Assembly: GCA_049968235.1 (NCBI GenBank)
Contig: JBMFRC010000001.1
Location: forward strand, 1-64,000
DNA length: 64,000 nucleotides
Reading direction: 5' to 3'
Source of the DNA: Candidatus Hydrogenedens sp.
Lineage (GTDB): Bacteria > Hydrogenedentota > Hydrogenedentia > Hydrogenedentales > Hydrogenedentaceae
Shown here: positions 21,354 through 52,256 of the stretch, one piece after another
Layout: the number at the start of each line of letters is the position of its first letter
Position numbering within the stretch: position 1 is the stretch's first letter
The notes under the pieces: model-generated
Told to the model about the DNA's origin: nothing
Databases searched by the model: none
Seen by the model: the letters and a program-made list of their open reading frames with translations, nothing else
Made by a program: the position numbers and the translations under genes

Positions 21354-21530
21354 TCTTATATCTCCAATCCCTTTCTAAATTCATTGCGGAATTTTAAATA
21401 TCTTCAAAAATTAACTGTGGAAATTTCCACACTTTTTAGACAAATCATATGTAAATTATATTGAACAAATCTTTGTAAGTGACTTGCTATCAGAATATTA
21501 AAACAAAATAATTCTGCAATGGCATAATAA

Positions 21531-34512: not shown

Positions 34513-35091
34513 AGTTTAAACCTCTCACATATAAAGGGTTTTTGTAATGTAAAAATGTTTATATTTACATTTAAGTGTTACTACCTGTGTTTGTGGTATT
34601 AATATGGCATTTATCTTCGATAAACAGGAAAAATGGGCTTTCTCCACCCATGAATGTTAAAAGTTTATTAATTAAGAAAGCAATAAAACATAAATCATCT
34701 GACCAACTCGCATACACTGGATGCTTGCTTGAAATCATTCGCACATGTTTCACCGTAGTTTCTCCTTTATTAAATTGTTTCATTATATTAAAATCTTAAT
34801 ATTTAATATACAATCATACATTACAGTTTATCACAAATCACACCATTTGTCAATAATTTCTTGGAAAATTTTACAAAACACAAACTTTTTATAATTCTAC
34901 ATCACTTCATCCCAATAATGTCAAGAATTTTTTGAAAAAAAATAATTATTTTCTAATAATATTACACGGGGATTTCAAAAATTACCACAATATTTATTTC
35001 GAACACTTTTAATCAAAAAATTAAAGAAATAAAAATTGTTATTTTATTTTGATATTGAAATAGATATGATGTTCAAAGAAGGAATCTTTTG

Positions 35092-35679
35092 TTATTTTTC
35101 TTTTCTTTTTATCATTGAGGTTTTTCTACAGCGGTTCATCCGATTTTGCCAATCACCTGTCCAACCTTCCTCGATGGCTTGCTGACATAAAGAGATACAT
35201 TCTTCATATTGTCCCTGTCGTTCTCGGATATCCGACAAGGTATCATATCCCAAATGTGCCGGTAGAGGTATGCCGGGCATTGTTTGTTGGATATGTTCTT
35301 TTACTTCTTTTGACAAATCTATTTGTTTTTTTGAGGTAATTATTAGCAGTGCTGTCTTCGTATCGTTATCTTTTATATCTTCTTCAATATATCTGGATAT
35401 TAATTCTTCCAAAGCATAAAAACAGTCCAGGACATCTTCTACTTCCATTTCTTCGAGGTCTTTTTCCATCTTTTTTAACAATGAGTCTGATTGTTCTAAA
35501 TCAGGACGATATGCCAGTTTACTTTTGTTAACAACGATATCTTCATTTTTCTCTACAGGCTCAATAATTGTTACCATAAAAAGACGCTGGCAGTTAGGGC
35601 ATAAAACTTTTTGCCCTATGATTGATGTCGGTAATAAAACCTCTTTAGAACAATAGGGACAGGTAACGATAAATTTCAT
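35092..35679 (-). CDS. Zinc-ribbon domain protein encoded immediately after addA (4-nt overlap)
   Basis: CPYCSKEVLLP...CPNCQRLF is a CxxC..CxxC ribbon. The remainder is acidic and helical. Unknown family. Confidence 0.5.
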   Translation of the reverse strand: MKFIVTCPYCSKEVLLPTSIIGQKVLCPNCQRLFMVTIIEPVEKNEDIVVNKSKLAYRPDLEQSDSLLKKMEKDLEEMEVEDVLDCFYALEELISRYIEEDIKDNDTKTALLIITSKKQIDLSKEVKEHIQQTMPGIPLPAHLGYDTLSDIRERQGQYEECISLCQQAIEEGWTGDWQNRMNRCRKTSMIKRKEK

Positions 35680-38600: not shown

Positions 38601-39095
38601 TTCTACCCACAAATTCATCTGACTTTGAATAAACCTATCGAGGAATAGTGGGCTTTGAAGTTCGTCCAGAATACGAAATTCCGGGTCGAAATCTAATTTC
38701 AGGGCATATTGCCGAAGTATACCGGCGCAGAAAGCGTGTATGGTGCATATTCGTGCAGATTCTAATTGTTGTTCGCACCACCTCCATTGGTCTAACTCTT
38801 CCGGTGTTGCATTACGGACATATTCATGGAAAGCATCACGCAGGCGTTGTCTCATTTCTGCAGAAGATTTTTCAGTAAATGTAATTGCTACAATTTCATT
38901 TAAATTGGCTTTTCTCTCTTCTAACAATCGTAATATTCTGGCTATTAAAACACGGGTTTTTCCGGAACCAGCAGAAGCATCAACACCTATTTTTAGTGCA
39001 TCAGAATAGATAGCCTTTTTTTGTTCCGCTGTTAATTCTGTAAAGTAACTATGCTGTTTTAGCTTCGCCACTTTCCTCATCTTCCGATATTCCAC
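35676..39095 (-). CDS. addA: ATP-dependent helicase/nuclease subunit A (AddA; UvrD-like SF1 helicase plus RecB-like nuclease)
   Basis: Walker A GVDASAGSGKTRVLIARI. UvrD-family motifs. C-terminal nuclease motif GTVDAILADGTIIDYKTG. Confidence 0.8.
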   Translation of the reverse strand: MEYRKMRKVAKLKQHSYFTELTAEQKKAIYSDALKIGVDASAGSGKTRVLIARILRLLEERKANLNEIVAITFTEKSSAEMRQRLRDAFHEYVRNATPEELDQWRWCEQQLESARICTIHAFCAGILRQYALKLDFDPEFRILDELQSPLFLDRFIQSQMNLWVENYTEVPELVIELSPQNFQKIIEILFQNSLHILPWLDEVNQCSIEESINRNIERINEKYEQYLLNFVKSTTVNGWITQLEELYKEIPEDEKNMKTLSSFYISELRKLQTAKQREHIIQIKEAILGNKTRLIIKNRNICGELQEQLKKIREDIKKTIGIEIVDLKAEDETTQKALTFTYRILRLFDQFYRQWVQYKRQQGVVDFDDLIHLTYDLLNRHTQVCKEIAEGIKYIFIDEFQDTDHTQVQLIQLLLSANPNLSFFFVGDAKQSIYAFRNAEVKVFQEQRQSVVDNNLFSLNYNFRSAPEVLDFVNTFFQKTNSLSAVEKTYIPMQAHRSSYAKPRVEFLLSVHSEDDKRTLKEDDVDIEAKIIAERIQSLVHNENPLMIVDEKTHKLRPVCYGDFALLFCTKNYIYKYEKALKDRGIPCFVVSSRGFFEITEIKDILNFLQVLINPYHDIALLSFLRGPFCGLSDEQITRWQMNLPLRNMLLNTNNIPDALTQDSAYVRVRYLYQYFRKKTHLPIHELIQEIVLQTGYESILLGHWFGEQRIANLQKFLALARAYQESNPVSLYQFHRFVERSRDKIMEGEADLATEAGDAVILTTIHQAKGLEYPIVVLPLLYEERQHRKSTAVHYHKEMGVIIKTKKKEDEKNNIVETIIKLQNTYDEYQEYIRLFYVALTRARDYLILSSNKKYLEEFYKKQKINSRLSLLASCFPLNKKKDTGLYYIIEREESNYSPKKKDLKREIKSLQYNLVPPISITPQHFKTEPISVTQILNFLFDDIYDEDNDEIYEQSLGMEHAERGIFYHQLLQLWDFYEENIEQLSKYILNIISPDILEDIIKNEKDVCFSKIINNPIYPILKANPPIWRETPFIWKTGGYFVQGTVDAILADGTIIDYKTGTHADNHAQRYWKQLEIYYYAMKDLGIKVNNKLIIVYIDQLKYDIKDIEVSVRDVLETEIHHAIEKYITKINQGYEK

Positions 39096-42000
39096 TTTGT
39101 TCTACTTTCATGTATCGGCATGCAGTCTTGCAGAAGCAATAATCACATGATTGCTTTTTGTAAGGGGCAGGGGTAAATTTTCCTTGATGTATATTCCCAA
39201 TAGTATCTAATATAATTTTTACTGCTATATTCTCTATTTCATTTCGCAAATTTTTATCCACTCCCCAGGGTGTACCTGTTTTTTTCTGTTCTGTTATTGA
39301 TAGAAAATAGGACTCCTCAACGGATAGACCTTCTTTTTGAAATAAATGTCTTTCGACAGCAAGTTCGTAAATAATCAGTTGAAAAGAGCAAAATCTTTCC
39401 TGCACATTATTAAATTTTATGCCCATATCCGTTTTTGTAGGGGTATTCCCCCATTTGTAGTCGATGACTCGTAATAATGGGTTACTTACATGTTTATCAA
39501 TACGGTCAATCCGACCGGAAAACAAAACAGATTTCTTTTGTGTCTCCATACAATAAGGTTTATGTTGACTTCTTTCATCTTCCGATGGATACATGGTTCT
39601 GCCAAAAGCAAGTTCAAAATATGCAGGTTTCCAATCATTATCAATCAAAGAGGCAGATGAGTTGAGAAATTCGGCAAGCACATGGGTAAGCCATTCTATT
39701 GTTAAATCAATCCATTTTTTCGGTAAAACAAACGACTTTCGGTCTTTAGAAACAATCTCTTGTATTATCTGTTGTAGTTTTTCCTTTATTACCTGGCTTT
39801 TATCCCTTAACAGTTCTTCGTAATGGTCTTTTAATAATCGAAAAAGAGTATCATGTGCCCAGGAACCAATCATCAAAGGAGAAGGGTAGATAAGTTCTTC
39901 CTCCCAATCCTGTAAGGCTAATACCCTATGTGTCCAGAAACGGAAAGGGCACTCTATATACTCTTCAATCTGGTCAACACTGTAAACATGGTCATGCCCA
40001 AACTTATTTGTAAGCCATTGTCGTATATCCTCTGCATGTAAATTCCCCGTATATATATTTTCATTCTCCTCTTCTCGTTTTTGTAATGAATACCAGCAGT
40101 TATAAATATCTGCATAGTGGTGTTTTAATACTTGTTCATCTTCCTGAATGTAGAAAAGCAGATTCCGTAATTCAGATGGGGAACAGGGAATAAACGGTTT
40201 TTTTTCTATTTCCTCCTGTTTTTGTGGGCTATTATGCACAATGTATTGACATACCTCCTGACACTCGCGTAATAACAAACTGGAAGAACATTCCCTATGT
40301 GTTTCGGAATATAAAGCGTGGGAAAGGAAGACCCCTTTTCGGGTAGTTTCAAAGATTTGTTGGAAGAACAACCATTCCCTCTGTATTTGTTTTGTAATAT
40401 CATCGATGGGTAGCCCTGATTGTCGCAGTTTCGTAATATCTTTATCGGAATATAAAACATTCTGTGTGGGTGTTAAAGGAATCGTTCCTTCTTCAACTCC
40501 ACCTACAAAAAGATAATCATATTCCATATTTCGTATCATAGGCAGGTCTAAACACATCACACCACAATTATGTCCCATATCAAAAAAAGATGCATCCGAC
40601 GATAAAGAGCGAATAAGCCTTTGAAATTCTTCCAGTGAAAGTTCCTGATTTTTAAGATAATCAGGAAGTTTTTTTATGACTGAAAGGAATTGTAAATAAC
40701 CTTTTTTCTCTTTTTGCAATTTCCTTTTATTGTCCTCATTTAATAAACAATCCTTCAACGCATTTTCCAATGAATGGAAAAGGTCAAGAAGAATAAAAAT
40801 GTAGTTTGATATTTTGTCCTGCCTTTTAAATTTATTCCGCCAGAAAAGCCATCGCTTTAGTTCATCATAGAATTGTTGAATATCTACCTTAGAAATATTT
40901 TTGTTCTCTATCTCACTAGAATATTCAATGAAATGTTCTTTCTCCTCTATTTTTTTATTAACATAGTCAAGAGACATACTCATCGAAAGCCCTACTTGCG
41001 ACAATAGCAAAAAGAATTTTTCACGAATGGATGGAGATATATTCCAGAGCGGGTCATGCAATAGTAAAGTTATCGCAGAGAGAGAATTTTCGTTAAGTTG
41101 TGCAAACCATCGTTCTAAAAATTGACCGACCCATGTTTCTCTTAAACCCTGTGACGATAGTATCCGATAAGGAATACCATAATCCATAAATGTCTTCTCG
41201 ATAAGTGGGCGGACTTTACCTAACTGGCGGTAAACAACGGCTATTTTGTGTAGTGGGACATGTTCCTGAACTAATAATTGTTTTATTTTACGTCCGATAT
41301 TTTTTATCTCCTCTTCCCTATTAATAAATCGTTCTACCTTAATTATTGAATCAGTAGAAGGGGTAAATGTTTTAGGCTCATCGCGACCAAAAAGAGTATC
41401 CGCAATAAATTCAATAGAGGTTTGAGGTATGGGTGTTTCAAAATAAATTGTCTTTGCATCTAATATAGATTGAACCCTTTTTAAGGCATCTTTCGCCAGA
41501 CGATAAATATCCTGTCTGCCGGGTATCGGGTCGAGATTAATGCCGATAATGATGTGTTTGAAGTGGGGAGATAACGCATGGATAAGTCGCAGTTCCGATT
41601 GGGTAAAATCGTCAAAGCCATCAAATATTAAATATTCCTTTCCCGCAATATAATCCGGTTTCCCTTTATGGCATTCCAGTTCTGCCTGCCAAAATAATCC
41701 TGGAACATCATACCCATTACTTTGCATTAGTTTTTCCTGATAGGTTGTATATACCCACGATACCACTTCATCCCAGGGTTCTACGGATAATTTTTTTATT
41801 TGTTCTTGAAATGCCTCTGGCGTAATTCCTGCCTGTTTTAAGTTCCGTATGATACGATGGAAAGAATCGGATAAGTTGTCAGGGGCAAGCAATCCCTGAT
41901 ACTGCTCGAACTTTTTTCGTCCCTCTTCCGATAAAATAATAGACCTTATTAATAGTGTCTGTTCCCATTCTTCAAGCAAATGGATGGGAATATACTGGGC

Positions 42001-42219
42001 TTTGAGTAAATTATAGGCAAATTGAGTAAAGTCGGTAACAATATTTTTTTCTATGGTAGGTTTTGCAATATCATTTAAAAGTTCTATACGCCTTTTCTGA
42101 GCATATTGTCGCGTAGGGACAATGAGTAAAGCAGATATATAATTTTCTCGTAGAATTTTCTGAGTTTGATTCTTACGGTCAGAGCGTTGACTTCCACATA
42201 ATATTAAGTTTCGTGTCAT
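39049..42219 (-). CDS. addB: Helicase/nuclease subunit B (AddB) with C-terminal PD-(D/E)XK nuclease and Fe-S cysteine cluster
   Basis: RIDRIDKH...VIDYKWGN is a nuclease motif. C-terminal CDYCFCKTACRY Cys cluster is typical of the AddB Fe-S staple. Overlaps addA by 47 nt. Confidence 0.75.
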   Translation of the reverse strand: MTRNLILCGSQRSDRKNQTQKILRENYISALLIVPTRQYAQKRRIELLNDIAKPTIEKNIVTDFTQFAYNLLKAQYIPIHLLEEWEQTLLIRSIILSEEGRKKFEQYQGLLAPDNLSDSFHRIIRNLKQAGITPEAFQEQIKKLSVEPWDEVVSWVYTTYQEKLMQSNGYDVPGLFWQAELECHKGKPDYIAGKEYLIFDGFDDFTQSELRLIHALSPHFKHIIIGINLDPIPGRQDIYRLAKDALKRVQSILDAKTIYFETPIPQTSIEFIADTLFGRDEPKTFTPSTDSIIKVERFINREEEIKNIGRKIKQLLVQEHVPLHKIAVVYRQLGKVRPLIEKTFMDYGIPYRILSSQGLRETWVGQFLERWFAQLNENSLSAITLLLHDPLWNISPSIREKFFLLLSQVGLSMSMSLDYVNKKIEEKEHFIEYSSEIENKNISKVDIQQFYDELKRWLFWRNKFKRQDKISNYIFILLDLFHSLENALKDCLLNEDNKRKLQKEKKGYLQFLSVIKKLPDYLKNQELSLEEFQRLIRSLSSDASFFDMGHNCGVMCLDLPMIRNMEYDYLFVGGVEEGTIPLTPTQNVLYSDKDITKLRQSGLPIDDITKQIQREWLFFQQIFETTRKGVFLSHALYSETHRECSSSLLLRECQEVCQYIVHNSPQKQEEIEKKPFIPCSPSELRNLLFYIQEDEQVLKHHYADIYNCWYSLQKREEENENIYTGNLHAEDIRQWLTNKFGHDHVYSVDQIEEYIECPFRFWTHRVLALQDWEEELIYPSPLMIGSWAHDTLFRLLKDHYEELLRDKSQVIKEKLQQIIQEIVSKDRKSFVLPKKWIDLTIEWLTHVLAEFLNSSASLIDNDWKPAYFELAFGRTMYPSEDERSQHKPYCMETQKKSVLFSGRIDRIDKHVSNPLLRVIDYKWGNTPTKTDMGIKFNNVQERFCSFQLIIYELAVERHLFQKEGLSVEESYFLSITEQKKTGTPWGVDKNLRNEIENIAVKIILDTIGNIHQGKFTPAPYKKQSCDYCFCKTACRYMKVEQSGISEDEESGEAKTA

Positions 42220-42245
42220 AATACCCCGTCTCTAATTAATTGGAG

Positions 42246-43190
42246 TTATAGAATCCCTTTAAAGTATTCAATCGTATATTTCAACCCTTCCTTAAGCGGA
42301 ATTTTTGGTTCCCAGTTCAGTTTTTCTTTCGCAAGAGAAATATCTGGTTTTCTTCGACAGGGGTCGTTTTCGGGTAGGGGTTTAAAAATAATTTCCGAAG
42401 ACGAACCTGTCATCTCACAAACTAATTTTGCCAATTCCAGAATAGTAAATTCTCCGGGATTCCCTAAATTTACAGGACCGGTAAACCCTTCACAATCCAT
42501 CATCCGAAGGATACCTTCAATTACATCGCTAATGTAACAAAAAGAGCGTGTTTGAGAACCATCTCCGAAGACAGTTATGGGTTCGTTTCGCAATGCCTGC
42601 ACAATAAAATTACTGACCACCCTTCCATCATTAATCAACATGCGAGGACCGTATGTATTAAAGATTCGTATTACACGAATGTCCACTCCATTTTGACGAT
42701 GATAATCAAAAAACAAAGCCTCCGCCACACGTTTGCCCTCATCATAACAACTACGTTTGCCAATAGGGTTCACATTGCCCCAATAGGTCTCAGGCTGAGG
42801 ATGCACAGTAGGGTCTCCGTAAACTTCTGATGTACTGGCTTGTAAAACGCGCGCCTTCACCCGTTTTGCCATACCCAATACATTTAACGCTCCCATAACA
42901 TTGGTTTTAATCGTTTTTACTGCATTGAATTGATAATGAACTGGTGAAGCCGGACACGCTAAATTAAATATTCGGTCTACTTCAAGAAGGATGGGTTCGG
43001 TTATATCATGGCGAATAATTTCAAATTGTGGATGCCCTATTATGTGCTGAATATTTTGTTTCCTACCTGTAAAAAAATTATCCAGGCAAATAACTTCCTC
43101 CCCGCGTCGCAATAAAGCCTCACACAAATGTGAACCGATAAAACCTGCCCCACCTGTAACTAAATTTACTCGTCTCATATCTTGCTCCAA
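42246..43190 (-). CDS. NAD-dependent UDP-glucuronate decarboxylase / UDP-xylose synthase-like SDR
   Basis: [36 protein letters not shown] closely matches the UXS/ArnA-type extended-SDR N-terminus. 314 aa. Confidence 0.75.
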
Positions 43191-43229
43191 ACAAGTCTGT
43201 TCTTTACTATTATATGATTTTTTCCCCGA

Positions 43230-43739
43230 TTATCCCAATTCCGAATGTATGAATGCTTCCCAATTTATTTTCACCACACCTTTTTTTACCGTTATTGGTT
43301 TGTTATGAAAACAAATTCCTGCACCATGCACCTCCCCGGGAAACAAAACCATAAATTGACCCGGCACATTTTGAATTACATTTATCTTGGATACATCTAC
43401 ATTATAAAACCTAACATCTTTTTTAATATCATACTCGGTTTTCACTTGAGCCATAGATTCAGGAAGCCATCCTATACCTTCTTCCCCTGAAAGTGAGAAT
43501 TGGACATCAATAAATTTCTTATGTGATTCAAAAATCGCTTCCGAAATTTCTTTTGTGGTATAGGACATAACCCGGGCTTTTATATCTTCTTTATAGATAA
43601 ACTCCATATCTGTATCCGGGCTATTTTCTTTTAGTCCCTGAATATAATTCAATACGAAATTTCCTATCTTCCCACGGAAATACCGTTCCCAATTTTCAAA
43701 TCGGTCAACTATCATGATTTTAACACCTCCTCGCAACAA
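43230..43739 (-). CDS. YhcH/YjgK/YiaL (DUF386) family protein
   Basis: FIDVQFSLSGEEGIGW...FMVLFPGEVHGAGICFHNKPITVKKGVVKI parallels E. coli YhcH YLDIQIVLKGQEGMTF...FVVFYPGEVHKP...VRKAVVKM. Probable start MIVDRFENW at 43715. Confidence 0.7.
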   Translation of the reverse strand: MLRGGVKIMIVDRFENWERYFRGKIGNFVLNYIQGLKENSPDTDMEFIYKEDIKARVMSYTTKEISEAIFESHKKFIDVQFSLSGEEGIGWLPESMAQVKTEYDIKKDVRFYNVDVSKINVIQNVPGQFMVLFPGEVHGAGICFHNKPITVKKGVVKINWEAFIHSELG

Positions 43740-44476
43740 GCAGTGCGTATTTTCTTTGCAAAGGACACACCCGGAATATCATAAATTTTTACAGTCCCCC
43801 CTGCAAATTTTATTAAAGCAGAACCACCTGCAATATCCCATAGCATAATTTCATCTTGAATAAAAGCGTCAATCCGACCACAGGCTACATAAGCCAGAGA
43901 TAATGCAGATGTACCTAAAAAACGAACCCTTTTATACTTCTTTAATTCATGGATATATTGCTGAAATTCATTTTCCGTATATGGACGAAACACCGGAAGT
44001 CCTGTGGCAACAATTCCATGCTTCGCCTGATTTATAGGGGAAACCTTGATGGGACTATCATTTAGGAATGCACCATTTTCCTTTGTTCCCGAAAATAATT
44101 CTTGTTTCAGAAAATCATAAACGATACCCAGTAAAAATTCATCATCTTTCATAAGAGCAATTGAGATAGCACACAACGGTATTTTCCTGCTGAAATTCAA
44201 TGTTCCATCCAATGGGTCAATTATCCAGAAAGGCTCATTCATAACATATTCACGAACCCAACCTCGTTCTTCAGATAAAATAGCAAATGGTGTCGATTCC
44301 AGCACATCTATAATTGCAGATTCAGATTCGCGGTCTGCCAGTAACTTTATGTCTCGGTCGTCTTCATAAATAACTTCGCAGGGCTCTCGAAAAAGGTCTG
44401 ATAAAATAATACCTGCTCGATGTACTGCGGTAATACCTAATTCTAAATATTCCTGAACATTCATTATAAACACCAC
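43712..44476 (-). CDS. Inositol monophosphatase family protein (IMPase/CysQ-like)
   Basis: WIIDPLDGTLNF is the IMPase metal-binding motif. 254 aa. Confidence 0.75.
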   Translation of the reverse strand: MVFIMNVQEYLELGITAVHRAGIILSDLFREPCEVIYEDDRDIKLLADRESESAIIDVLESTPFAILSEERGWVREYVMNEPFWIIDPLDGTLNFSRKIPLCAISIALMKDDEFLLGIVYDFLKQELFSGTKENGAFLNDSPIKVSPINQAKHGIVATGLPVFRPYTENEFQQYIHELKKYKRVRFLGTSALSLAYVACGRIDAFIQDEIMLWDIAGGSALIKFAGGTVKIYDIPGVSFAKKIRTACCEEVLKS

Positions 44477-44477
44477 C

Positions 44478-45146
44478 TTAATGGTATAAATTTTTACCCC
44501 GTTTCTGTGCTATAAAAGTACTGATAATATGTGTAATGATACAGAATACATCTTCAACGGGTCCGTATTCATCTTTCGTACTTGCAACAAGAAGTCCATA
44601 ATCACATAACGAAATCATTCTACCTCCGTCACAACCTGCTATACCTATCGTTTTAATTTCATGCTCCTTTGCCCATTCCACTACCTTTATAACATTGGGA
44701 CTATTCCCACTAACAGACATTGCTATTAATAAATCACCTTCCTTAGCAAAAGCACGCAATTGCCCAATAAATATGTTTTCATAACCTTCATCATTTCCTA
44801 ATGCAGTAATTACCGCCTGGTTATCTGATAAATTTATAGCACGAATAGGCGGACAATTTGTAACATAATTTCCTACGACCAAATCATTAACCCAATGAGA
44901 GAGGACTGAAGAACTACCACCGTTACCCGCAAGAAATAGGGTCTTCCCTTCACTGATTTTATTCCACATTACATCGGCTATTTTTGTTAACACATCTTTA
45001 TTTAAATGCGTAAGAATTTGGCACAAACGTTCACAATACCCATTATAGTAATCAGTAAAACTGGGAGATGATTGAAACAAATTTTTCATGAAATACATAT
45101 AAAATACTCCGTAGATTATTGTTAAAAAGATATTTAATTTTAACAT
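44478..45146 (-). CDS. gmhA: SIS-domain phosphoheptose isomerase-like protein (GmhA-like)
   Basis: TLFLAGNGGSSSVLSHWVNDL and LLIAMSVSGNSPNVIKVVEWAKEHEIKTIGIAG parallel E. coli GmhA [20 protein letters not shown] and [32 protein letters not shown]. True start probably the internal MKNLFQ. Confidence 0.7.
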   Translation of the reverse strand: MLKLNIFLTIIYGVFYMYFMKNLFQSSPSFTDYYNGYCERLCQILTHLNKDVLTKIADVMWNKISEGKTLFLAGNGGSSSVLSHWVNDLVVGNYVTNCPPIRAINLSDNQAVITALGNDEGYENIFIGQLRAFAKEGDLLIAMSVSGNSPNVIKVVEWAKEHEIKTIGIAGCDGGRMISLCDYGLLVASTKDEYGPVEDVFCIITHIISTFIAQKRGKNLYH

Positions 45147-45445
45147 GTTAAATCTAAAATACCTACGAATATTGTTATCACATTCCTTAATGCATAAACA
45201 AAAATAAATACAGGAAACAGTATAAGATATGCTAAATACAGGAGCAAATTATCTTTGCCCCGAATATAGCACAAGCATTTATTCCTTCTTTTGCAATTAT
45301 AAGTGGTGCGATTATTTTAATTTATCAGAGTAATACAATTATCCTGCTTTTGATAAATTCAATTTATTAATTAGCACCGGCATTTCTCTCTTTGCTTTTT
45401 ACCACGAATGGTGCGAGATGTAAATAAGCATAAAGTATTTATTAT

Positions 45446-45592
45446 AGCAAATGATTATTCGCCATTACATAGAGATGCACTTGCCATGCAGGCGGGTTTT
45501 TGGAATGTGTTGGTAAAAATCGTTTCTGTCTGGCAGGACTTTCAGCAAGACAATGAGATAATTTTCACCACGGAGGACACGGAGGGACACAT
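45446..45592. repeat. Copy B of the duplicated non-coding element
   Basis: See the feature at 230-345. Reading frames are not conserved between the copies (indels), so it is not protein-coding; ORF 45408-45680 is rejected. Confidence 0.6.
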
Positions 45593-45765
45593 AGATATTT
45601 TTTTCTTATCACAGAAAGCACGGAGAACACAGAGAAGGGAACAGAGAATAGGTATGAGTATGGATATATTTATTCTATGATTTATATTCTCCTTTCCTTT
45701 TTTCTCTGTGTTTCTCTGTATTCTCTGGGGTGGAGTATTTTTTTTCTCACCACAGAGAGCACTAT
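45560..45765. repeat. Degenerate CACGGAG(R)(R)AC / CAGAGAA direct repeats plus an imperfect inverted repeat
   Basis: caccacggaggacacggagggacac at 45567-45591, gcacggagaacacagagaagggaacagagaa at 45625-45650, reverse-complement-like ttttctctgtgtttctctgtattctctg at 45700-45727, and caccacagagagcac at 45749-45763. Confidence 0.5.
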
Positions 45766-45966
45766 CTTTTCTTGTTAATGACTGCATATAATTTGAAGTG
45801 GATATATGAGGAATTAAGGGGGCAAAAGGAGAAGTATGCATAGGTAACCAAAAGATAAAAATACTCACAGAAAATAACAAATAAAATGGGTAAAAGTAGG
45901 GATACAGACTTTTGTATTTTAATTTTTCATCGGGATTTTATCTCATAAAAACATGTATAATTTATA

Positions 45967-46001
45967 CTCTTACCTCTTACCTCTTACCTCTTACCTCTTA
46001 C
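45967..46001. repeat. (CTCTTAC)x5 perfect heptanucleotide tandem repeat next to the cas2 3' end
   Basis: Direct reading: ctcttacctcttacctcttacctcttacctcttac. Confidence 0.9.
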
Positions 46002-46031
46002 AAAAATTGTTCAGAGGTCTCGTGTATTTTT

Positions 46032-46358
46032 TTATACTATAATAAGGTTGGGGTTTGAGATGGGTGTATAGTAGTTTAGTCCGTTTCTGTTGATAATTTT
46101 GATTTTATTTGCATCAGCATGGCAAAGGGGTATGATATGTATAATAAGTTGTCGGTTTTGGTCATTGGGTTGTTCGTTGGAGAGGTAATCACGAATGGTT
46201 TCCTGTAGTTTTTCGATAAGGAGTTCTTTTTCATATTCATCGAGGTCGCCCATGAAAACGGAGAATTGTATGTGCGAAGTTCCTACTTCTTCGAGGAGGT
46301 AGGTTATTTTGTTTCGTAGTTTATCGTTTCCTATGTCGAATAATAGTAGTGTTTGCAT
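46032..46358 (-). CDS. cas2: CRISPR-associated endoribonuclease Cas2 (108 aa, apparently intact ORF)
   Basis: MQTLLLFDIGNDKLRNKITYLLEEVGTSHIQFSVFMGDLDEYEKELLIEKLQETI has the Cas2 N-terminal strand (llv.YDi), helix, vF.c pattern and acidic helix. Sits 13 nt downstream of the cas1 remnant. Confidence 0.6.
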   Translation of the reverse strand: MQTLLLFDIGNDKLRNKITYLLEEVGTSHIQFSVFMGDLDEYEKELLIEKLQETIRDYLSNEQPNDQNRQLIIHIIPLCHADANKIKIINRNGLNYYTPISNPNLIIV

Positions 46359-46371
46359 AGGTTGATTTGTG

Positions 46372-47340
46372 TTATAGGTTGTATTTATTTTGTTGATTTA
46401 GGGTTTGTGTTAGTTTTATGGCTGCGAGCAGGATGTGTTTTTGGTAGTTGGTATTGGGGTCTTTGGGGGTAGGTTCATAGAGGCGTTCTATGTAAAGGGA
46501 GGAGAGTTTTTTTGTGTTTCTTTTTCGAGTAATCCGTTTTTCTGGAGTTGTACATTTATTCCTTGTCGTATGTAAGCGAGTAAGGGTGTATCGATGAGGG
46601 GTTGACGGAAAGGTTCGATAAAGAAGACGAGGGACTGTTTGTTGTTCTGTAGGGTGTGCAGAAACCCTGCATATGGGTCGAGTCCGGCGAGGGTTAAGGC
46701 ACGGAAGCATTCGGAGTAGAGGATGCCGTAACCGTAGTTGAGTGCAGAATTGACGGGGTCTTTCGAATGTCGGTGTGTTCTGTGGGTAAAGTTATAATTG
46801 GCTGGGATAAGTTGTTTGAAATATGACCAGTAGATGGATGAGGCGTGTGCTTCGGTGGACATGATTTGTTGTTTTGCGTGGGATATATTTTCAGTGTTGA
46901 TGGATTTTAATTTTTCGATGAGTGGGTAAATAGTATTGTGAAGTGTATCTTCGATTTGGGCTAAGTATGTTTTGTATCGACACAGGAATTAGAATTGGTT
47001 TTCGATTTTTGTTTGTATGTATTTTTTTGGCAATTTGTATGCCTAAGCCGTTCTGGATGGCTGTGTATTGGTTCCATCGGTTCTGGATATGGGGGTGATT
47101 GTATATAGGCTGGATAAAAGTGATGGAGTTCCCGTAGGGCTTACATACGGTTAAGGCGATGTCTTGCTGGCTTGCGAGTGAAAGTGCTTCAGCGGAGATG
47201 GAAAATCCTTGGGTGAAGATGATGATGTGTGAGAGTTTGCTGGATGGGATTGTTTTAAGGGTTTTGTTTTCGCCGATAATTTTGAACATGTTTTTGTGTC
47301 TACCGACACGGATATTCTTTTCAATAAGGATGAGATGCAT
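46372..47340 (-). pseudogene. cas1: cas1 pseudogene with at least two frameshifts
   Basis: Fragment 47340-46891 (frame 0) is the Cas1 N-terminal domain. Fragment 46862-46488 (frame 2) carries DPVNSALNYGYGILYSECFRALTLAGLDPYAGFLHT...LVFFIEPFRQPLID, the Cas1 catalytic helical core, with the conserved Asp of lv.Dl.EpFR replaced by Phe. The C-terminus returns to frame 0 at 46710-46372. Total is about 323 codons. Confidence 0.7.
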
Positions 47341-47416
47341 GTTAAAGTCCTCCTCTTCATTATTTTTATTACATCTAACCTTAAAAAGTTGTATTATTTG
47401 CTATGTATTTAGTCCC

Positions 47417-48643
47417 AATCAATTTCGAGTTTGAACCAACCCATAGGAAGGGATGCCTTTGTTATTTTTTTTGTGATGTAGTTAATTTATGAGACTTTGG
47501 ATAAGGTATTTGGTCAGAACATCTGTCTCTCTTTGCTTTTCCCCATTTTTTGTCATTTGTATCTCCTTGTGAAAATAGTAATGTTATAGTTTTTGATAAA
47601 GAACCTGTGCCATAACCTAATTGTAAAAATATTTTTTTGCCTCTTTCTATCCTAATATCTTCAGGGATGTCATATTCATTTTTATTTACAGAATTAAAGA
47701 ATTCCAGTTGTTTATCAATTAAAATTTCTGAGTATTTGCGTAAACAATCTTGAAAACTCTGTGTATCGTTAAGAACATTTTTAAGATATTTTATCTATTC
47801 TCCGTTATTATATTTATATTCATCCAACATAAATTTTAATGCTTGTTGGTCTAAATAGAAATCTATAATTATTTCTTTACCTTTAGGAATCAGGCATTCA
47901 GCAAATATATCAAATGGTTTAGTTGAAAATTTGTCTCCATTTTTACTTTTTACTTTTATTTGACATATTCCAAAATTGTCGATAGGAATCTCTTTAGAGT
48001 CTCTGATTACTAAAAATTTAAATAAATCATATTTTGCATCATAATTCGAATTATCTACTTCTAATGTAGTATATTTTTCTATATTTTTATTAAGGAGAAT
48101 ATTATTAATATTATTTGACTCTTTAATTAAACAATTAGTGACTGCATTTCTTATACATCCCTTTATACTTGAACCTGGAATAAAAAATTTCCCAAATGGG
48201 TATTTTATAAAGGAAAGGATTGGAGGAAGAGAAGTAGATTCTTGACATATAGATTTTGACTGAGAATTTTGGGATTGTTTTTTCTCAACTTGTTTCTGTA
48301 TTTTTCTTAGTTCTGGAGGAAGTGCTGTATGTTTAGGCGATATGGACCTTGATTGTTTATTTGTTTTTTCTCCTCTTGTTCCAAAATCAGCATATATAGG
48401 AAGAGAATAGCGAATATATTCAGGGTCGGGACGAAAGGAGGGTTCTTCAATAATCTTTAAATCAGTTTCATAATCTTCGCAATTATCCTGAAAATATTTC
48501 ATGACATCTTTTAGACAGAATAATAGCTGTTTCTCGTCAATGTCAATGTAATATTCAAAATTCTGATATTCTTCGCCATCTGATATATGGATGGGAGTGA
48601 TAGGTGTTAGTTTGAATTTGCCATGTTTCTTTTTATCGTTCAT
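47417..48643 (-). pseudogene. csm5: csm5 (type III-A Cas7-family RAMP) interrupted by an in-frame TAG at 47795-47797
   Basis: N-terminus KFKLTPITPIHISDGEEY and G-rich loop FFIPGSSIKGCIRN are colinear with S. thermophilus Csm5 (TFKLSLLTLAPIHIGNGEKY ... PYIPGSSLKGAIRT), as are LFKFLVIRDSKEIPIDN and LFNAIRVSDSKPFDN. After the TAG the frame continues ...IFLQLGYGTGSLSKTI... (matching Csm5 YLGAGSGAWTKTL) to a stop at 47417, about 409 codons in total. Confidence 0.7.
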
Positions 48644-48656
48644 TGTTTTTCTCCTT

Positions 48657-49595
48657 TTAAGGATGTTTGAAATAGATATTGAATGCGAGACCGGAACGCC
48701 AGATAGGATGAGGTGATGAGTCGTAACTGATGGCGATTACATCCCCCTTAGGCATTTCTTTGATAACAGGGAATTTACTTCCTTCTATACACATACGAAC
48801 AGATTGTTTGGGTTCATCATACCCGGCAATGCCATGTATCCACCCACCTCGCATAGTGCATTCATAAGATGCGATATTGGTGAGAATACCATTTTCAAAT
48901 TCTTCCAAAGTAGGATGATAAAGACTGAGTATTGCGGGACTGAGTATTGCGGTAGCTTTTGGTGGACTTTCCTGCCCACTTATTTTGAGCGTATCATTTT
49001 CTTCAATAATATATTTTGATTCGAAAGGTTCAATTTTTTTATAGTAAAATGTCCGAAACCTAAACTGCGTTCACCACCAATACCCAGTTTACCCAAAGCG
49101 GATAGAAAATTGACAAATGATTCTTTTTTCTCTTCTTCTAATTTAACAAAAAACCACAATCCGACATCTTCTTCGCTATTTATCTCATAAAAATTTTGAG
49201 GGTAGGCTGTAGTTTGATTAGTAACCCGGTCAATGACGGTGGAAATTTTATAATTTTCTTTAACGGTTTTTTTGGAGGGGAAACCTTCTTTATTATTTAT
49301 CAGGTCATTCATTTCTTCATTCAGGAGAAAAGTTGTTCCTGGATTCTCTTCATCACCGTCTAAATAGGGATAATCTTCTTTTTTTTGGGAAAAGTTCTTT
49401 TAATATTTGCTGGGTTTCTTCTGCTTTTTGGAATATTGATGAAGTGGTTAGAAGAATGACATTATCAAAATCACCAATGTTAACAGAAGAAATAATCGGC
49501 CCCTATTGTGTTCCACCGGTGGGTGCTTCATCTACTCTCCCGTAAGGGTCATTTGTTCCTACAAAACTTAACAGTAGAGAAGATTTCCTCCCCAT
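48657..49595 (-). pseudogene. csm4: csm4-like (Cas5-family RAMP) pseudogene with an in-frame TAG (49503-49505) and two homopolymer-associated frameshifts
   Basis: Three frame segments: 49595-49380 (MGRKSSLLLSFVGTNDPYGRVDEAPTGGTQ*GPIISSVNIGDFDNVILLTT...), a shift at the A8/T8 run 49379-49386, then 49378-49060 (...FVNFLSALGKLGIGGERSLGFGHFTI, resembling the Csm4 G-rich loop LQYSGLGGKRSSGFGRFEL), a shift at the T-run 49034-49041, then 49070-48657 (..LEEFENGILTNIASYECTMRGGW...). About 313 codons. Sits directly upstream of csm5, as csm4 does in III-A operons. Confidence 0.5.
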
Positions 49596-49688
49596 ACTAT
49601 TCGGTCCTTTTTTATATTTAACTTTTAACTAATTTTGAATATACAATATAAAGAGTGTTTAAATCAAATTAAAGCAAGTAGGTTATTT

Positions 49689-50069
49689 TTATTTTTCGGG
49701 GAAAGAGGAGGGGTGGGAACCGATGGCGATAATACTGCAAGCGTAGATGGGATTTAAGTTGAGTTGGATTGCCTTTTGCATAAGTTCTTCGTCTTCCGCA
49801 CCGGGGTTGATGTAAAGTTCCTCATGCTTCTTTTTAGCGATTGAGGGTAAAAGTGTTTTGCCGATTTGGGGAGGGACATAGACACTGATACGGTCGATAG
49901 GCTCGGGGACCTCCTCAATAGATTTATAGCAGGGAATTCCTTCAATTTCTGTAAGGTTTGGATTGACGGGATAAACTGTCCATCCTCTGGCAATATATGC
50001 ACGAATAGCTTTGTTGCTATATTTGTTTTTGTCTGCAGATGCACCGATGATTGCAACCGTTTTAGACAT
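49689..50069 (-). CDS. CoA-binding domain protein (YccU/YneT-like)
   Basis: MSKTVAIIGASADKNKYSNKAIRAYIARGWTVYPVNPN..IEGIPCYKSIEEVP is a CoA-binding Rossmann motif. The longer ORF-track start overlaps clpP and is rejected. Confidence 0.7.
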   Translation of the reverse strand: MSKTVAIIGASADKNKYSNKAIRAYIARGWTVYPVNPNLTEIEGIPCYKSIEEVPEPIDRISVYVPPQIGKTLLPSIAKKKHEELYINPGAEDEELMQKAIQLNLNPIYACSIIAIGSHPSSFPEK

Positions 50070-50073
50070 TGTA

Positions 50074-50736
50074 TTATTTCTCTTTTTTGGGTTTTGAGCG
50101 TTGGAGAACTTCGTCGATGAGTCCGTAATTTTTCGCTTCTTCTGCACTGAGGAATAGGTCGCGGTCGGTATCTTTACGGATAACTTCGATGGGTTGACCG
50201 GTATGTCTGGCGAGAATCTGGTCAATGGTTTCGCCGATACGAACAATTTCCTGAGCTTGAATAGCAATATCTGTTGCCTGTCCACGGACACCTCCCATGA
50301 GTTGATGTAGTAAGAAGCGTGAATAAGGGAGGGCGTAACGTTTGCCTGGAGTTCCTGCGGACATAAGCACAGCAGCCATACTTGCTGCCTGTCCAAGACA
50401 GATAGTCGTAATTTCAGGGCGTATAAATTGCATCGTGTCGTAAATAGCAAGACCTGCCGTTACACTTCCTCCCGGACTATTGATGTAAAGGTTGATATCT
50501 TTATCCGGATCTTCTGCCTCTAAATATAATAGTTGAGCAATGATATAGTTTGCGACATAATCGTCAATGGGCATACCCAGAAAGATAATTCGGTCCTCAA
50601 GCAGGCGTGAATAAATATCGTAAGCCCTCTCACCCCGACTCGTTTGCTGGTATATTGTTACCGCCTGTGGATTAATGGGGCTTTCGGAATAAGGATGAAT
50701 TCCGTGTTTAAGTAATTTTTCTATTGCTTCATGCAT
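50074..50736 (-). CDS. clpP: ATP-dependent Clp protease proteolytic subunit
   Basis: [19 protein letters not shown]..., catalytic Ser context [14 protein letters not shown], and HQLMGG. 220 aa. Confidence 0.9.
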
Positions 50737-50750
50737 GGTTTTAAGTTCTC

Positions 50751-52256
50751 TTAATTAGATTCTTTTTCCCATTCTTCGCGGGAAACAGTTTTTGTTTCAA
50801 TTTTTGCATTATCCAGAATAAGTTTCACTACTTTCTTCCGAAGGATAGTATCGGTTACATCATCTCTTCCCTGTTCTTGGATATAATTTCGAATGGTTTC
50901 TATATCAATACCTGTTCTTCCCTGTATGCTTTGTGCTTCATTTTCATAGTCACTATCCGTAATTTTTATTCCTTCTGCTTCGGCTATTTCACTTGCCACA
51001 GTATACCATTTAATTGTTTTCTCTGCTTTTTCTTTTGCATCTTTTTCCAGTTCTTCTCGCTGTTTTTCAATTTCTGACATAGGCATTCGCATCTGTATCA
51101 TTCGCTGGATTTGTTCCTCTACCTGATTTCTCGCTACTTCTTCAATGAGAGATTTGGGAATTTCAAAAGTACTACTTGCAATAACCTGTTCAATAGCGGA
51201 TGTTTCTAATTGATAATCCGTTTCCTCTGATATAGCATTTTCTATTTCTTTCTTGATTTGTTGTTTTAAGTCTTCAAGATTTTCGGCTCCTGCTTGTTTT
51301 GCAAACTCGTCATTTAATTCCGGCAATTCTTTCCTTTTAATGTCTTTTACTTTAATTTCAAAAGTAGCCTTTTTTCCTGCCAGACTTTTATTTGTATAGT
51401 CTTCTGGAAATTCTACCTCACAAGTTTTTGTATCACCGACTTTGGCACCGATAAGAGCCTCTTCAAATTTACCGAAAAATCTCTTTGAGCCAATAATATA
51501 AGGGTAATTGTTAGCACTTCCACCTGGGAAACTTTCCCCATCTATAGTTCCATTAAAATCAATAATCGCCTGGTCACCATTAGATATTTCTGCATCAGGA
51601 ACGGACTGGTAAATTGAGAAACGGTTTCTCAAAAGTTCCAGTCGTTCTTTAATCATACTTTCATCTGGTTCTAGAACTTTGCGTTCTAATTCAAGTCCAC
51701 GATATTTACCCAGTTCACATCTTGGTGCCACTTCAAAAGTAACCTGAAAAGATATATCACTATCTTCCGGTAATTTGTCAAGTTGTTCTAATCCTTCAAA
51801 TTGTGGTGTCGAAAAAGCCCTTAATTTATTGTCTTCCATTAATTTTTTTACAGATTCGGTTATAACCTTATCAAAGGCTTCTTTTCGTGCTATTTTTCCG
51901 AACTTATTTTCGACCAGCCACATGGGGGCTTTCCCTTTACGGAAACCGGGCAATTCTGCATGTTCCTTTACTTCTTCCAGATTTTTATTTATCTGTGATT
52001 TAGTATTTACTGCAGGAATAGTAATTTTTACGGAATATAAACAGTCCCCTTTGTAATCAATTTCATATTCGGGGTCTTTTTCAAATTTAAATTCTTCCTC
52101 CTCTGTATCATGGGCATGGTGATGGTGTTTATGCTCATGTGTTTTCTCTGTTGGAGATTGTTCCGAAGAATTTTCTGTTACGATTTGAGATTCTTCTGTC
52201 GGTTCCAATTCAGAGGTTTTTGTGTTTTCTTCGTTGTTGTTTTTTTGTTCTGTCAT
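50751..52256 (-). CDS. tig: Trigger factor with about 75-aa acidic/His-rich N-terminal extension
   Basis: Ribosome-docking motif [13 protein letters not shown]-type PPIase region ([24 protein letters not shown]). The extension contains [11 protein letters not shown]. Confidence 0.8.

What the first reader, a model, noticed from the sequence alone, without database searches (positions are those of the whole stretch)
45147..49688. Decayed, array-less type III-A CRISPR-Cas island (csm4-psi, csm5-psi, cas1-psi, cas2) inserted between gmhA-like and clpP-tig housekeeping genes
Translating the minus strand gives unmistakable Csm5 (N-terminal KFKLTPITPIHISDGE, G-rich loop IPGSSIKGCIRN, C-terminal LQLGYGTGSLSKT), a Csm4-like Cas5 RAMP (G-rich loop LGKLGIGGERSLGFGHF), Cas1 (DPVNSALNYGYGILY...EPFRQ) and Cas2. 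Every gene except cas2 is broken: csm5 by one in-frame TAG, csm4 by a TAG plus two frameshifts at A8/T8 homopolymers, cas1 by two compensating frameshifts with loss of a catalytic Asp. cas10, csm2, csm3, cas6 and csm6 are absent, and I cannot find a repeat-spacer array. The large flanking ORFs (up to 1504 aa) are intact, which argues against generic sequencing error. This looks like a snapshot of CRISPR-Cas loss, or possibly a repurposed adaptation module.
Basis: partly seen in the sequence, partly recalled or inferred. Interest (0 to 1): 0.7.

Follow-up and report, generated by a model that had tools for sequence, protein, structure and literature searches.

The report
Decayed type III-A CRISPR-Cas remnant
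This stretch of a Candidatus Hydrogenedens genome is the dead remnant of a type III-A CRISPR-Cas immune system, gutted by a 6-kb deletion and at least eight smaller mutations, which is a clear but ordinary example of a bacterium losing CRISPR immunity.

Summary
Profile HMMs find Csm4 (C-terminal two-thirds only), Csm5, Cas1 and Cas2 on the minus strand of 46032-49380. The 64-kb window has no CRISPR array.

A related Hydrogenedens contig (L001) carries the intact locus at the same place: tig-clpP-CoA_binding-rtcR-like-cas10-csm2-csm3-csm4-csm5-cas1-cas2, and L002 shows the array.

Against that reference the window has:
- a ~6-kb deletion from rtcR codon ~72 to csm4 codon ~140, at a 9-bp direct repeat (AAAAAGAAG);
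- three nonsense codons, four frameshifts and a 3-nt deletion of a conserved Cas1 Asp.

One degenerate solo repeat survives at 45522-45563.

A second, independent assembly is 99.96% identical with no gaps, so these are not sequencing errors.

- the "csm4 N-terminus" with its TAG is the 5' stub of a CARF/sigma-54 regulator gene;
- the A8 "frameshift" at 49379-49386 is the deletion junction;
- csm5 has an extra 3' frameshift, and cas1 an extra TAA.

An intact cas2 is expected by chance (P about 0.4), so no repurposing is indicated.

This is known biology. Interest is low, apart from the regulator and sigma-54 promoter arrangement seen in the intact relatives.

The parts
49380..49595 (-). 5' stub (codons 1-72 of about 506) of an RtcR-like CARF/sigma-54 enhancer-binding regulator gene. 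It carries a TAT>TAG nonsense codon at 49503-49505.
   Evidence: tblastn with L001 and L004 RtcR-like proteins gives 56-65% identity over 72 aa. The intact homologue has RtcR, Sigma54_activat, AAA_lid_14 and HTH_8 domains.
49375..49386 (-). Junction of a ~6-kb deletion (5,984 bp in L001 coordinates). The deletion removed the rest of rtcR, the sigma-54 promoter, cas10, csm2, csm3 and csm4 codons 1 to about 139. One copy of the microhomology AAAAAGAAG remains.
   Evidence: blastn of window 51254-49375 matches L001 2-1891, and window 49279-48361 matches L001 7944-8852. AAAAAGAAG is present at L001 1883 (rtcR codon 71) and 7867 (csm4 codon 139).
48657..49380 (-). csm4 pseudogene covering only codons ~140-377. 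It has a -1 frameshift at about 49020-49045 and an in-frame 15-bp tandem duplication at 48923-48952.
   Evidence: TIGR01903 E=1.5e-27 over profile positions 102-302 of 304. tblastn shows two frames. The duplication is seen.
47412..48643 (-). csm5 pseudogene. It has an in-frame TAG at 47795-47797. A frameshift at the A8 run 47465-47472 displaces the conserved C-terminal LPMGWFKLE motif (47415-47477) into another frame.
   Evidence: TIGR01899 E=7.5e-23. tblastn and alignments are.
46372..47340 (-). cas1 pseudogene with four lesions: a +1 insertion at about 47029, CAA>TAA at 46989-46991, a 3-nt deletion of the conserved Asp codon at about 46623, and a -1 deletion in the A7 run 46507-46513.
   Evidence: TIGR00287 E=1e-53 after frame repair. 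Intact homologues P0001-P0004 are 67-76% identical. The Asp aligns with the D of 'IDLME' in A. fulgidus Cas1 4N06.
46032..46358 (-). cas2, an intact 108-aa ORF.
   Evidence: PF09827 E=5.5e-10 and TIGR01573 E=6.9e-9. It is 71% identical to the 108-aa Cas2 of L001 and L004. dN/dS is 0.12-0.13.
45564..46031 (-). Former leader region. It has no detectable similarity to the relatives' leader. It contains a CTCTTAC x5 microsatellite at 45967-46001 and short CTCCGTG/TCTCTGTG-type repeats.
45522..45563 (-). Solo degenerate CRISPR repeat relic. TTATCTCATTGTCTTGCTGAAA matches the relatives' repeat at 20 of 22 positions. It is followed by ACAGAAAC, against ATAGAAAC at the repeat's 3' end.
   Evidence: This is the only hit in 64 kb, and 0 of 100 shuffles give any hit. 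It matches all three repeats of the L002 array. It lies on the same strand, about 470 nt after cas2, against about 560 nt in L002.
45147..45521 (.). Synteny breakpoint between the ex-array and gmhA. Colinearity with other Hydrogenedens genomes runs from 34408 to 45160 and stops there.

Best explanation
The region is a recently pseudogenised type III-A (Csm) CRISPR-Cas locus in a Candidatus Hydrogenedens MAG.

Ancestral state (shown in relatives): tig-clpP-CoA_binding | rtcR-like CARF/sigma-54 activator - sigma-54 promoter - cas10-csm2-csm3-csm4-csm5 - cas1-cas2 - leader - CRISPR array.

Inferred course of decay:
1. A 6-kb deletion between two 9-bp direct repeats (AAAAAGAAG), by replication slippage or microhomology-mediated recombination. 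This removed the activator, the operon promoter, cas10, csm2, csm3 and the 5' 40% of csm4, and abolished interference.
2. Loss of the array down to one repeat, together with a rearrangement that brought gmhA next to it.
3. Neutral accumulation in the remaining genes of three nonsense codons, four 1-nt indels (mostly at A7-A8 runs) and a 3-nt deletion of a conserved Cas1 Asp.

Nothing in the remnant can carry out adaptation, crRNA-guided interference or cOA signalling. cas2 is still open only because it is short.

What is shown: gene identities, lesions, the intact orthologous locus, and reproducibility in a second assembly. What is inferred: the order of events and the slippage mechanism.
For: - HMM identities.
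- Source organism: Ca. Hydrogenedens sp..
- Intact syntenic locus L001 and array-bearing L002. A second intact cassette, L004, sits in another genomic context.
- Deletion end points and 9-bp microhomology.
- Lesion maps.
- Independent assembly L003 (GCA_049971155.1) is identical apart from 2 SNPs, with 0 gaps over window 46637-51450.
- Outside the island, 7 A8/T8 runs and about 38 A7/T7 runs lie inside intact ORFs of up to 1139 aa. The island is the only stretch without long ORFs.
- TAG is an ordinary stop in 5 of 40 genes.
- dN/dS of the window genes against relatives (cas1 0.04, cas2 0.12, csm5 0.2-0.3) equals that between intact relatives, so the decay is recent.
- Solo repeat relic at the expected place and on the expected strand.
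- The lesion spectrum (single-A deletions, nonsense mutations, deletions) is the one seen experimentally in S. epidermidis III-A escape mutants (PMC3784566).
Against: - No reads were available, so lesions are verified only by agreement of two assemblies. Both are Ca. Hydrogenedens MAGs in NCBI, possibly from the same study and sequencing platform.
- L003 does not cover cas2, the relic repeat, or the last 265 nt of cas1 (46372-46636), which include the -1 deletion at 46507-46513 and the Asp codon deletion at about 46623.
- L001 is a 70-80% identical relative, not the ancestor. The microhomology in the ancestor is therefore inferred, and L004 has AAAAGGAAAG at the csm4 site.
- The rest of the genome was not examined. 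Another CRISPR-Cas locus could exist.
- The order of events cannot be determined from one snapshot.
Confidence: 0.9

Rival explanations
1. The locus is intact. The stops and frameshifts are sequencing or assembly errors, for example homopolymer miscalls or a collapsed assembly.
For: Four of the indels lie at or next to A7-A8 runs. The source is a MAG.
Against: - An independent assembly has exactly the same indels, stops and deletion junction, with 0 gaps in 4814 nt.
- About 45 comparable homopolymers sit in intact ORFs elsewhere in the window.
- Three lesions are base substitutions to stop codons, one is a 3-nt deletion and one is a 6-kb deletion. None of these is a homopolymer artefact.
Confidence: 0.03
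2. This is a repurposed or minimal module. cas2, perhaps with the Csm5 N-terminal fragment, is retained by selection for a new role such as a standalone nuclease or toxin-like function, or adaptation for another CRISPR locus in trans.
For: cas2 is the only intact gene. It keeps the N-terminal Asp and has dN/dS of 0.12-0.13.
Against: - Its partner Cas1 is destroyed by two frameshifts, a TAA and loss of a conserved Asp.
- At 8 disabling lesions in about 3.1 kb, a 327-nt gene escapes by chance with P about 0.43.
- The low dN/dS mostly reflects divergence accrued before decay, because synonymous sites are saturated (dS > 1).
- The operon promoter region was deleted.
Confidence: 0.05
3. This is a phase-variable or recoded locus. 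The A-tract frameshifts are reversible contingency switches or programmed slippage sites, and TAG is read through.
For: Frameshifts sit at A7-A8 tracts. Two of the three nonsense codons are TAG.
Against: - cas10, csm2 and csm3 are physically absent, and there is no array.
- cas1 also has a TAA and a codon deletion.
- TAG terminates 5 of 40 intact genes in the window.
- Intact relatives have no frameshift at these sites.
Confidence: 0.02

Closest known systems
Type III-A (Csm) CRISPR-Cas loci, e.g. Staphylococcus epidermidis RP62a, and their spontaneous loss-of-function escapers (Jiang et al. 2013, PMC3784566)
   Same: - Csm4 and Csm5 match the III-A equivalog models, followed by Cas1 and Cas2.
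- The inactivation spectrum is the same: single-A deletions in runs, nonsense mutations, partial locus deletions and spacer/array loss by repeat recombination.
   Different: - This is a natural population remnant, not a laboratory escaper.
- The signature genes cas10 and csm2 are absent.
- No cas6 or csm6 is seen, even in the intact relatives.
- The deletion is mediated by microhomology, not by IS elements.
Intact Hydrogenedens type III-A cassettes found here (L001 = ENA ERZ6864144 c_000000405616; L004 = Logan SRR31359996_403040; L063-L065)
   Same: - Orthologous genes: Cas1 76%, Cas2 71%, Csm4 55-64% and Csm5 41-48% identity.
- Same flank (tig-clpP-CoA_binding) in L001.
- Same unusual C-rich, G-poor cas1-cas2 composition.
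   Different: The window lacks rtcR (apart from 72 codons), the sigma-54 promoter, cas10, csm2, csm3, the 5' part of csm4, the leader and the array. Every remaining gene except cas2 is broken.
RtcR-like CARF/sigma-54 activators at the head of defence operons (type I R-M and CoCoNuT superoperons; Makarova 2014 PMC4012209; Bell et al. 2024 PMC11090510)
   Same: The deleted regulator has the same CARF-AAA+(sigma-54)-HTH architecture. It sits at the 5' end of a co-directional defence operon with a TGGCAY-N5-TTGY element in front of the first gene. Relatives at 36-38% identity head type I R-M loci.
   Different: In this lineage it heads a type III-A operon. The papers I could read do not report that association, and Makarova 2014 lists the RtcR-like family as not typically cas-linked. 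In the window only a dead stub remains.
Orphan or degenerate CRISPR-Cas loci reported in many bacteria (e.g. Aggregatibacter, PMC3484387; Mycoplasma gallisepticum, bioRxiv 10.1101/2023.03.14.532377)
   Same: cas pseudogenes and array loss as a route of CRISPR-Cas loss.
   Different: Different phylum (Hydrogenedentota) and subtype. Here the deletion junction and a solo repeat relic can be pinpointed.

Membership tests
Type III-A (Csm) CRISPR-Cas system, functional | Signature gene cas10/csm1 plus small subunit csm2 | tested here: not met
   tblastn with Cas10 and Csm2 of L001 and L004 finds nothing in the 64-kb window. The syntenic relative has both.
Type III-A (Csm) CRISPR-Cas system, functional | Csm3, Csm4 and Csm5 RAMP subunits as intact ORFs | tested here: not met
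   csm3 is absent. csm4 lacks about 140 codons and is frameshifted. csm5 has a TAG and a 3' frameshift.
Type III-A (Csm) CRISPR-Cas system, by descent (remnant) | Csm4 and Csm5 sequences score above the curated cutoffs of the III-A equivalog models | tested here: met
   TIGR01903 scores 96.7 bits against a cutoff of 55. TIGR01899 scores 81.6 bits against a cutoff of 38.3.
Type III-A (Csm) CRISPR-Cas system, by descent (remnant) | An orthologous intact III-A locus at the syntenic position in a relative | tested here: met
   L001 carries tig-clpP-CoA_binding-rtcR-cas10-csm2-csm3-csm4-csm5-cas1-cas2. The flank is 80% identical at nucleotide level.
CRISPR array | At least two or three direct repeats of 24-48 nt separated by unique spacers | tested here: not met
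   No array was found by repeat finders, TRF, a k-mer chain scan or Rfam. Only one degenerate repeat relic is present, at 45522-45563.
Cas1 integrase | Full-length match to the Cas1 profile | tested here: met
   TIGR00287 E=1e-53 over profile positions 5-325 of 327, but only after conceptual repair of two frameshifts.
Cas1 integrase | Uninterrupted ORF with the conserved His ... Asp-x-x-Glu acidic cluster | tested here: not met
   The gene has a +1, a TAA and a -1. The Asp codon of LVF[D]FIE is deleted. This column is invariant in six homologues and aligns with IDLME of PDB 4N06.
Cas2 | Intact ORF matching the Cas2 profile with the N-terminal Asp | tested here: met
   PF09827 E=5.5e-10. The ORF is 108 aa, the same length as in relatives, and the FDIGND motif is retained. 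Activity was not tested.
Pseudogene cluster (genuine decay, not artefact) | Multiple independent disabling lesions that are reproducible in an independent assembly, while neighbouring genes are intact | tested here: met
   Eight point lesions plus a 6-kb deletion are present. L003 is identical with 0 gaps. Flanking ORFs with similar homopolymers are intact.
Pseudogene cluster (genuine decay, not artefact) | Read-level support for each lesion | not testable with these tools
   No reads are available.
RtcR-like CARF/sigma-54 enhancer-binding regulator | CARF (RtcR) + Sigma54_activat AAA+ + HTH domains in one ORF | tested here: not met
   Only codons 1-72 remain, with a TAG, and Pfam gives no hit on the stub. 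The intact homologue in L001 has all the domains.

The most novel reading that the evidence does not exclude
The remnant descends from a type III-A arrangement that I did not find described. In it the cas10-csm operon is transcribed from a sigma-54 promoter under an RtcR-like CARF enhancer-binding protein encoded immediately upstream. [quoted passage not shown] The first step of decay in this genome removed exactly that regulator-promoter-cas10 block. The gene linkage and the TGGCAY-N5-TTGY element about 35-45 nt upstream of cas10 are seen in three divergent Hydrogenedens loci (L001, L004, L063/L064). The regulatory function itself is inferred.
Probability: 0.45. Interest if true: 0.55.

Novelty: new member of a known kind. 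Interest (0 to 1): 0.27.

Why it matters
It is a clean natural snapshot of CRISPR-Cas loss in an uncultured phylum (Hydrogenedentota). The deletion junction, its microhomology, the solo repeat relic and each point lesion can all be read against an intact orthologous locus. It shows the same mutational routes in nature that laboratory escape experiments found for type III-A. This adds an example, not a principle.

The more useful by-product is the intact relatives' layout: a CARF/sigma-54 activator plus a sigma-54 promoter in front of cas10. That suggests a testable mode of transcriptional control of type III systems.

Tried and rejected
1. Strand-asymmetric hypermutation as the cause of the extreme GC skew over cas1-cas2 (+0.49 on the plus strand, about 4 SD). 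Rejected because intact relatives show the same skew, strongest at third codon positions.
2. Exact-sequence look-ups of cas2 and gmhA found nothing on record. ClpP did work.
3. Searching the full 37-nt relative repeat with up to 3 mismatches found nothing. Only a more sensitive blastn and the 22-nt 5' half revealed the relic.
4. The ORFs in 45147-46031 (90 aa on the plus strand, 112 aa on the minus strand) have no significant Pfam match, only a marginal DUF4870 hit at E=0.12, far below cutoff. They overlap the relic repeat and low-complexity repeats, and are treated as spurious.
5. Relaxed-selection tests were uninformative. The Cas1 singleton count (19) is similar to that of other long branches (23-24). 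dN/dS equals that of intact pairs, with saturated dS. This says only that the decay is recent.
6. TAG recoding was rejected.
7. The 90-aa ORF between cas1 and cas2 in L001/L002 has no Pfam family and is absent from intact L004. Its absence in the window is therefore not counted as a lesion.
8. The search for an 'empty site' was unsuccessful. Relatives syntenic on the gmhA side carry unrelated genes upstream, so a simple insertion model could not be tested.

Full report
**1. What is there**

On the minus strand between the gmhA-like gene (44478-45146) and the CoA-binding/clpP/tig genes (49689-52256) there is no long ORF, only fragments. Conceptual translations were scored with profile HMMs:
- Csm4: TIGR01903 E=1.5e-27, profile positions 102-302 of 304; Csm4_C PF17953 E=1.5e-10.
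- Csm5: TIGR01899 E=7.5e-23.
- Cas1: TIGR00287 E=1e-53, full length after frame repair.
- Cas2: PF09827 E=5.5e-10.

No repeat-spacer array exists in the 64-kb window. This was checked with a repeat finder, TRF, my own k-mer chain scan and Rfam.

**2. Source and intact reference**

The window's ClpP and trigger factor are exact matches to proteins of a MAG named Candidatus Hydrogenedens sp., on a 421-kb contig.

The repaired Cas1 has four close, intact homologues (67-76% identity, 324-326 aa), then nothing above 34%.

- L001 carries one of these homologues. Its gene order is tig - clpP - CoA_binding - RtcR-like (CARF + Sigma54_activat + HTH, 506 aa) - cas10 (916 aa) - csm2 - csm3 - csm4 (377 aa) - csm5 (439 aa) - cas1 - orf90 - cas2. 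This is an intact III-A locus at the same place as the window's remnant. The tig-clpP-CoA flank is 80% identical at nucleotide level.
- L002 shows the same 3' end followed, about 560 nt after cas2, by a CRISPR array with the 37-nt repeat GTTTATCTCATTGCCCTGCTGAAAAAGGGATAGAAAC.
- L004 carries the same cassette, without orf90, in a different genomic context.

**3. Lesion map**

Coordinates are window coordinates on the minus strand.

(a) Positions 49595-49380 are codons 1-72 of the rtcR-like gene, not csm4. This stub contains TAT>TAG at 49503-49505.

(b) At 49375-49386 the rtcR stub is joined directly to csm4 codon ~140.
- In L001 the 9-mer AAAAAGAAG occurs at both end points: position 1883 (rtcR codon 71) and position 7867 (csm4 codon 139).
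- The two copies are 5,984 bp apart, and the window keeps one copy.
- This is the signature of a deletion between short direct repeats.
- The deletion removed the regulator, the intergenic promoter, cas10, csm2, csm3 and the 5' 40% of csm4.

(c) csm4 has a -1 frameshift at about 49020-49045 and an in-frame 15-bp tandem duplication at 48923-48952.

(d) csm5 has a TAG at 47795-47797 and a frameshift at the A8 run 47465-47472. The frameshift leaves the conserved C-terminal ...LPMGWFKLE(I/L/V)D... motif out of frame (47415-47477).

(e) cas1 has four lesions:
- a +1 at about 47029;
- CAA>TAA at 46989-46991;
- a 3-nt deletion of the Asp codon in LVF[D]FIEPFRQ at about 46623. This column is invariant in six homologues and aligns with IDLME of A. 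fulgidus Cas1 4N06;
- a -1 in the A7 run at 46507-46513.

(f) cas2 (46032-46358) is intact at 108 aa.

**4. The array side**

A sensitive comparison of the 940 nt downstream of cas2 with the L002 array found one segment that matches all three repeats.
- TTATCTCATTGTCTTGCTGAAA at 45540-45561 agrees with the repeat at 20 of 22 positions.
- It is followed 10 nt later by ACAGAAAC, against ATAGAAAC at the repeat's 3' end.
- It is the only such hit in 64 kb, and none occurred in 100 shuffles.
- It lies on the cas strand, about 470 nt after cas2.

The array has therefore been reduced to a single degenerate repeat.

Just beyond it, at about 45160, colinearity with other Hydrogenedens genomes begins (window 34408-45160 against Ca. 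H. terephthalaticus, 83% identity). Five relatives share a conserved pair of oxidoreductase genes upstream of gmhA. These are not in the window, apart from a 26-29% paralogue at 16.5 kb. None of the five has cas or clpP there. The gmhA side is therefore a rearrangement breakpoint coinciding with the ex-array, and not the second edge of a simple insertion.

**5. Real or artefact?**

- A second assembly (L003, GCA_049971155.1, contig JBMFLO010000231.1) covers window 46637-51450. It has 2 substitutions and no gaps, so every stop, indel and the deletion junction in that span is reproduced. Both SNPs fall in pseudogene sequence. L003 stops short of the last 265 nt of cas1, so the Asp codon deletion and the -1 at 46507-46513 rest on the window assembly alone.
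- Elsewhere in the window, 7 A8/T8 runs and about 38 A7/T7 runs lie within intact ORFs of up to 1139 aa, and coding density is 86%. The island is the only ORF-poor stretch.
- TAG ends 5 of 40 intact genes, so it is not recoded.

Sequencing error, phase variation and recoding are therefore poor explanations.

**6. Timing and cas2**

dN/dS between the window's repaired genes and the relatives equals that between the two intact relatives: cas1 0.04 against 0.05, cas2 0.12-0.13 against 0.08, csm5 0.22-0.30 against 0.24. Synonymous sites are saturated. Almost all divergence therefore predates inactivation, and the decay is recent on that scale.

There are eight disabling point lesions in about 3.1 kb of pseudogene sequence. 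A 327-nt gene is then expected to carry 0.83 lesions, and P(0) is about 0.43. The intact cas2 needs no special explanation.

**7. Mechanism**

Shown: identities, lesions, the ancestral architecture in relatives, and reproducibility.

Inferred:
- A slippage or microhomology deletion knocked out interference and the operon promoter.
- The array collapsed to one repeat during or before a rearrangement.
- The orphaned genes then drifted.

The lesion types mirror those recovered experimentally when S. epidermidis III-A immunity is selected against: single-adenine deletions, nonsense mutations, partial or complete deletions and repeat-mediated spacer loss (PMC3784566). Why the loss was tolerated or favoured cannot be told from this window. 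Possible reasons are self-targeting, cost, or a beneficial mobile element.

**8. Side observations**

The regulator:
- The RtcR-like gene sits directly upstream of cas10 in three divergent Hydrogenedens loci in three genomic contexts: L001, L004 and L063-L065.
- In each, a sigma-54-type -24/-12 element lies about 35-45 nt before the cas10 start. It reads TGGCACTCTTTTTGC in L004, TGGCATTCTCCTTGC in L063 and TGGCATCTTTCTTGT in L001.
- More distant homologues (36-38% identity) head type I R-M loci. This fits published descriptions of RtcR-like CARF activators at the head of defence operons (PMC4012209, PMC11090510).
- Makarova et al. 2014 list this family as not typically cas-linked. I found no paper describing a III-A linkage.

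Composition:
- The cas1-cas2 module, and the leader in relatives, has a strikingly C-rich, G-poor coding strand. GC skew is -0.4 to -0.5 overall and -0.6 to -0.8 at third codon positions. The csm genes are near zero.
- This is shared by intact relatives, so it is not a decay signature.
- Its cause is unexplained.

**9. Verdict**

The 'repurposed adaptation module' alternative is not supported. This is a well-resolved but ordinary case, a new example of a known phenomenon. Interest is low. The regulator and sigma-54 arrangement in the intact relatives is the part worth following up.

Noticed in passing
L001:1672-3351; L004:1630-3309; L063:9001-10688 (window stub 49380-49595): In intact relatives an RtcR-like CARF/sigma-54 enhancer-binding gene lies directly upstream of cas10. 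A TGGCAY-N5-TTGY (sigma-54 -24/-12) element lies about 35-45 nt before the cas10 ATG in three divergent loci. More distant homologues head type I R-M operons. A III-A linkage was not found in the literature I could search.
   Followed up: partly
window 46032-47340 (also L001:10001-11846, L004:10001-11403): The cas1-cas2 coding strand is extremely G-poor and C-rich. It gives the strongest skew in the window, about 4 SD, with third-position GC skew of -0.6 to -0.8. The adjacent csm genes are unskewed. Intact relatives share the skew, and in L001 it extends into the leader. The cause is unknown; distinct origin of the adaptation module, or codon usage, are possibilities.
   Followed up: partly
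window 45147-45521: Synteny breakpoint. Colinearity with five other Hydrogenedens genomes stops at about 45160. Those genomes share a conserved pair of TAT-signal Gfo/Idh/MocA-like oxidoreductase genes upstream of gmhA, which are missing here.
   Followed up: partly
window 45967-46001: A perfect heptanucleotide microsatellite, CTCTTAC x5 (GTAAGAG on the cas strand), lies immediately downstream of the cas2 stop. It is absent from the relatives' leader.
   Followed up: no
window 45569-45590 and 45700-45762: Short imperfect repeats (CACGGAGGGA-like, TTTTCTCTG-like and a 24-nt pair 141 nt apart) lie in the former leader. They generate spurious ORFs with 'TEDTEGH / SVSSVV'-type low-complexity translations.
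   Followed up: no
L001:11000-11272; L002:2252-2524: A 90-aa ORF with no Pfam family lies between cas1 and cas2 in L001 and L002. It is absent from L004 and from the window.
   Followed up: partly
window 47753 and 46805: The only two differences between the window and the independent assembly L003 over 4.8 kb both lie in pseudogene sequence (the csm5 3' part and cas1). None lies in tig, clpP or the CoA_binding gene.
   Followed up: no
L004:1252-1630 vs window 49600-50012: In L004 the region upstream of rtcR is 65% identical to the window's CoA_binding gene region, although no gene is called there and the wider context differs. Part of the CoA_binding gene may travel with the cassette.
   Followed up: no
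window 49689-50450: The mechanical 253-aa ORF is an over-extension. The real CoA_binding gene is 126 aa (49689-50069), as in L001 and L003, and the upstream part overlaps clpP.
   Followed up: yes
window 21520-21535 (+): This is the only TGGCAY-N5-TTGY sigma-54-like motif in the window (TGGCATAATAATTGCT). It lies just upstream of the ORF starting at 21531.
   Followed up: no
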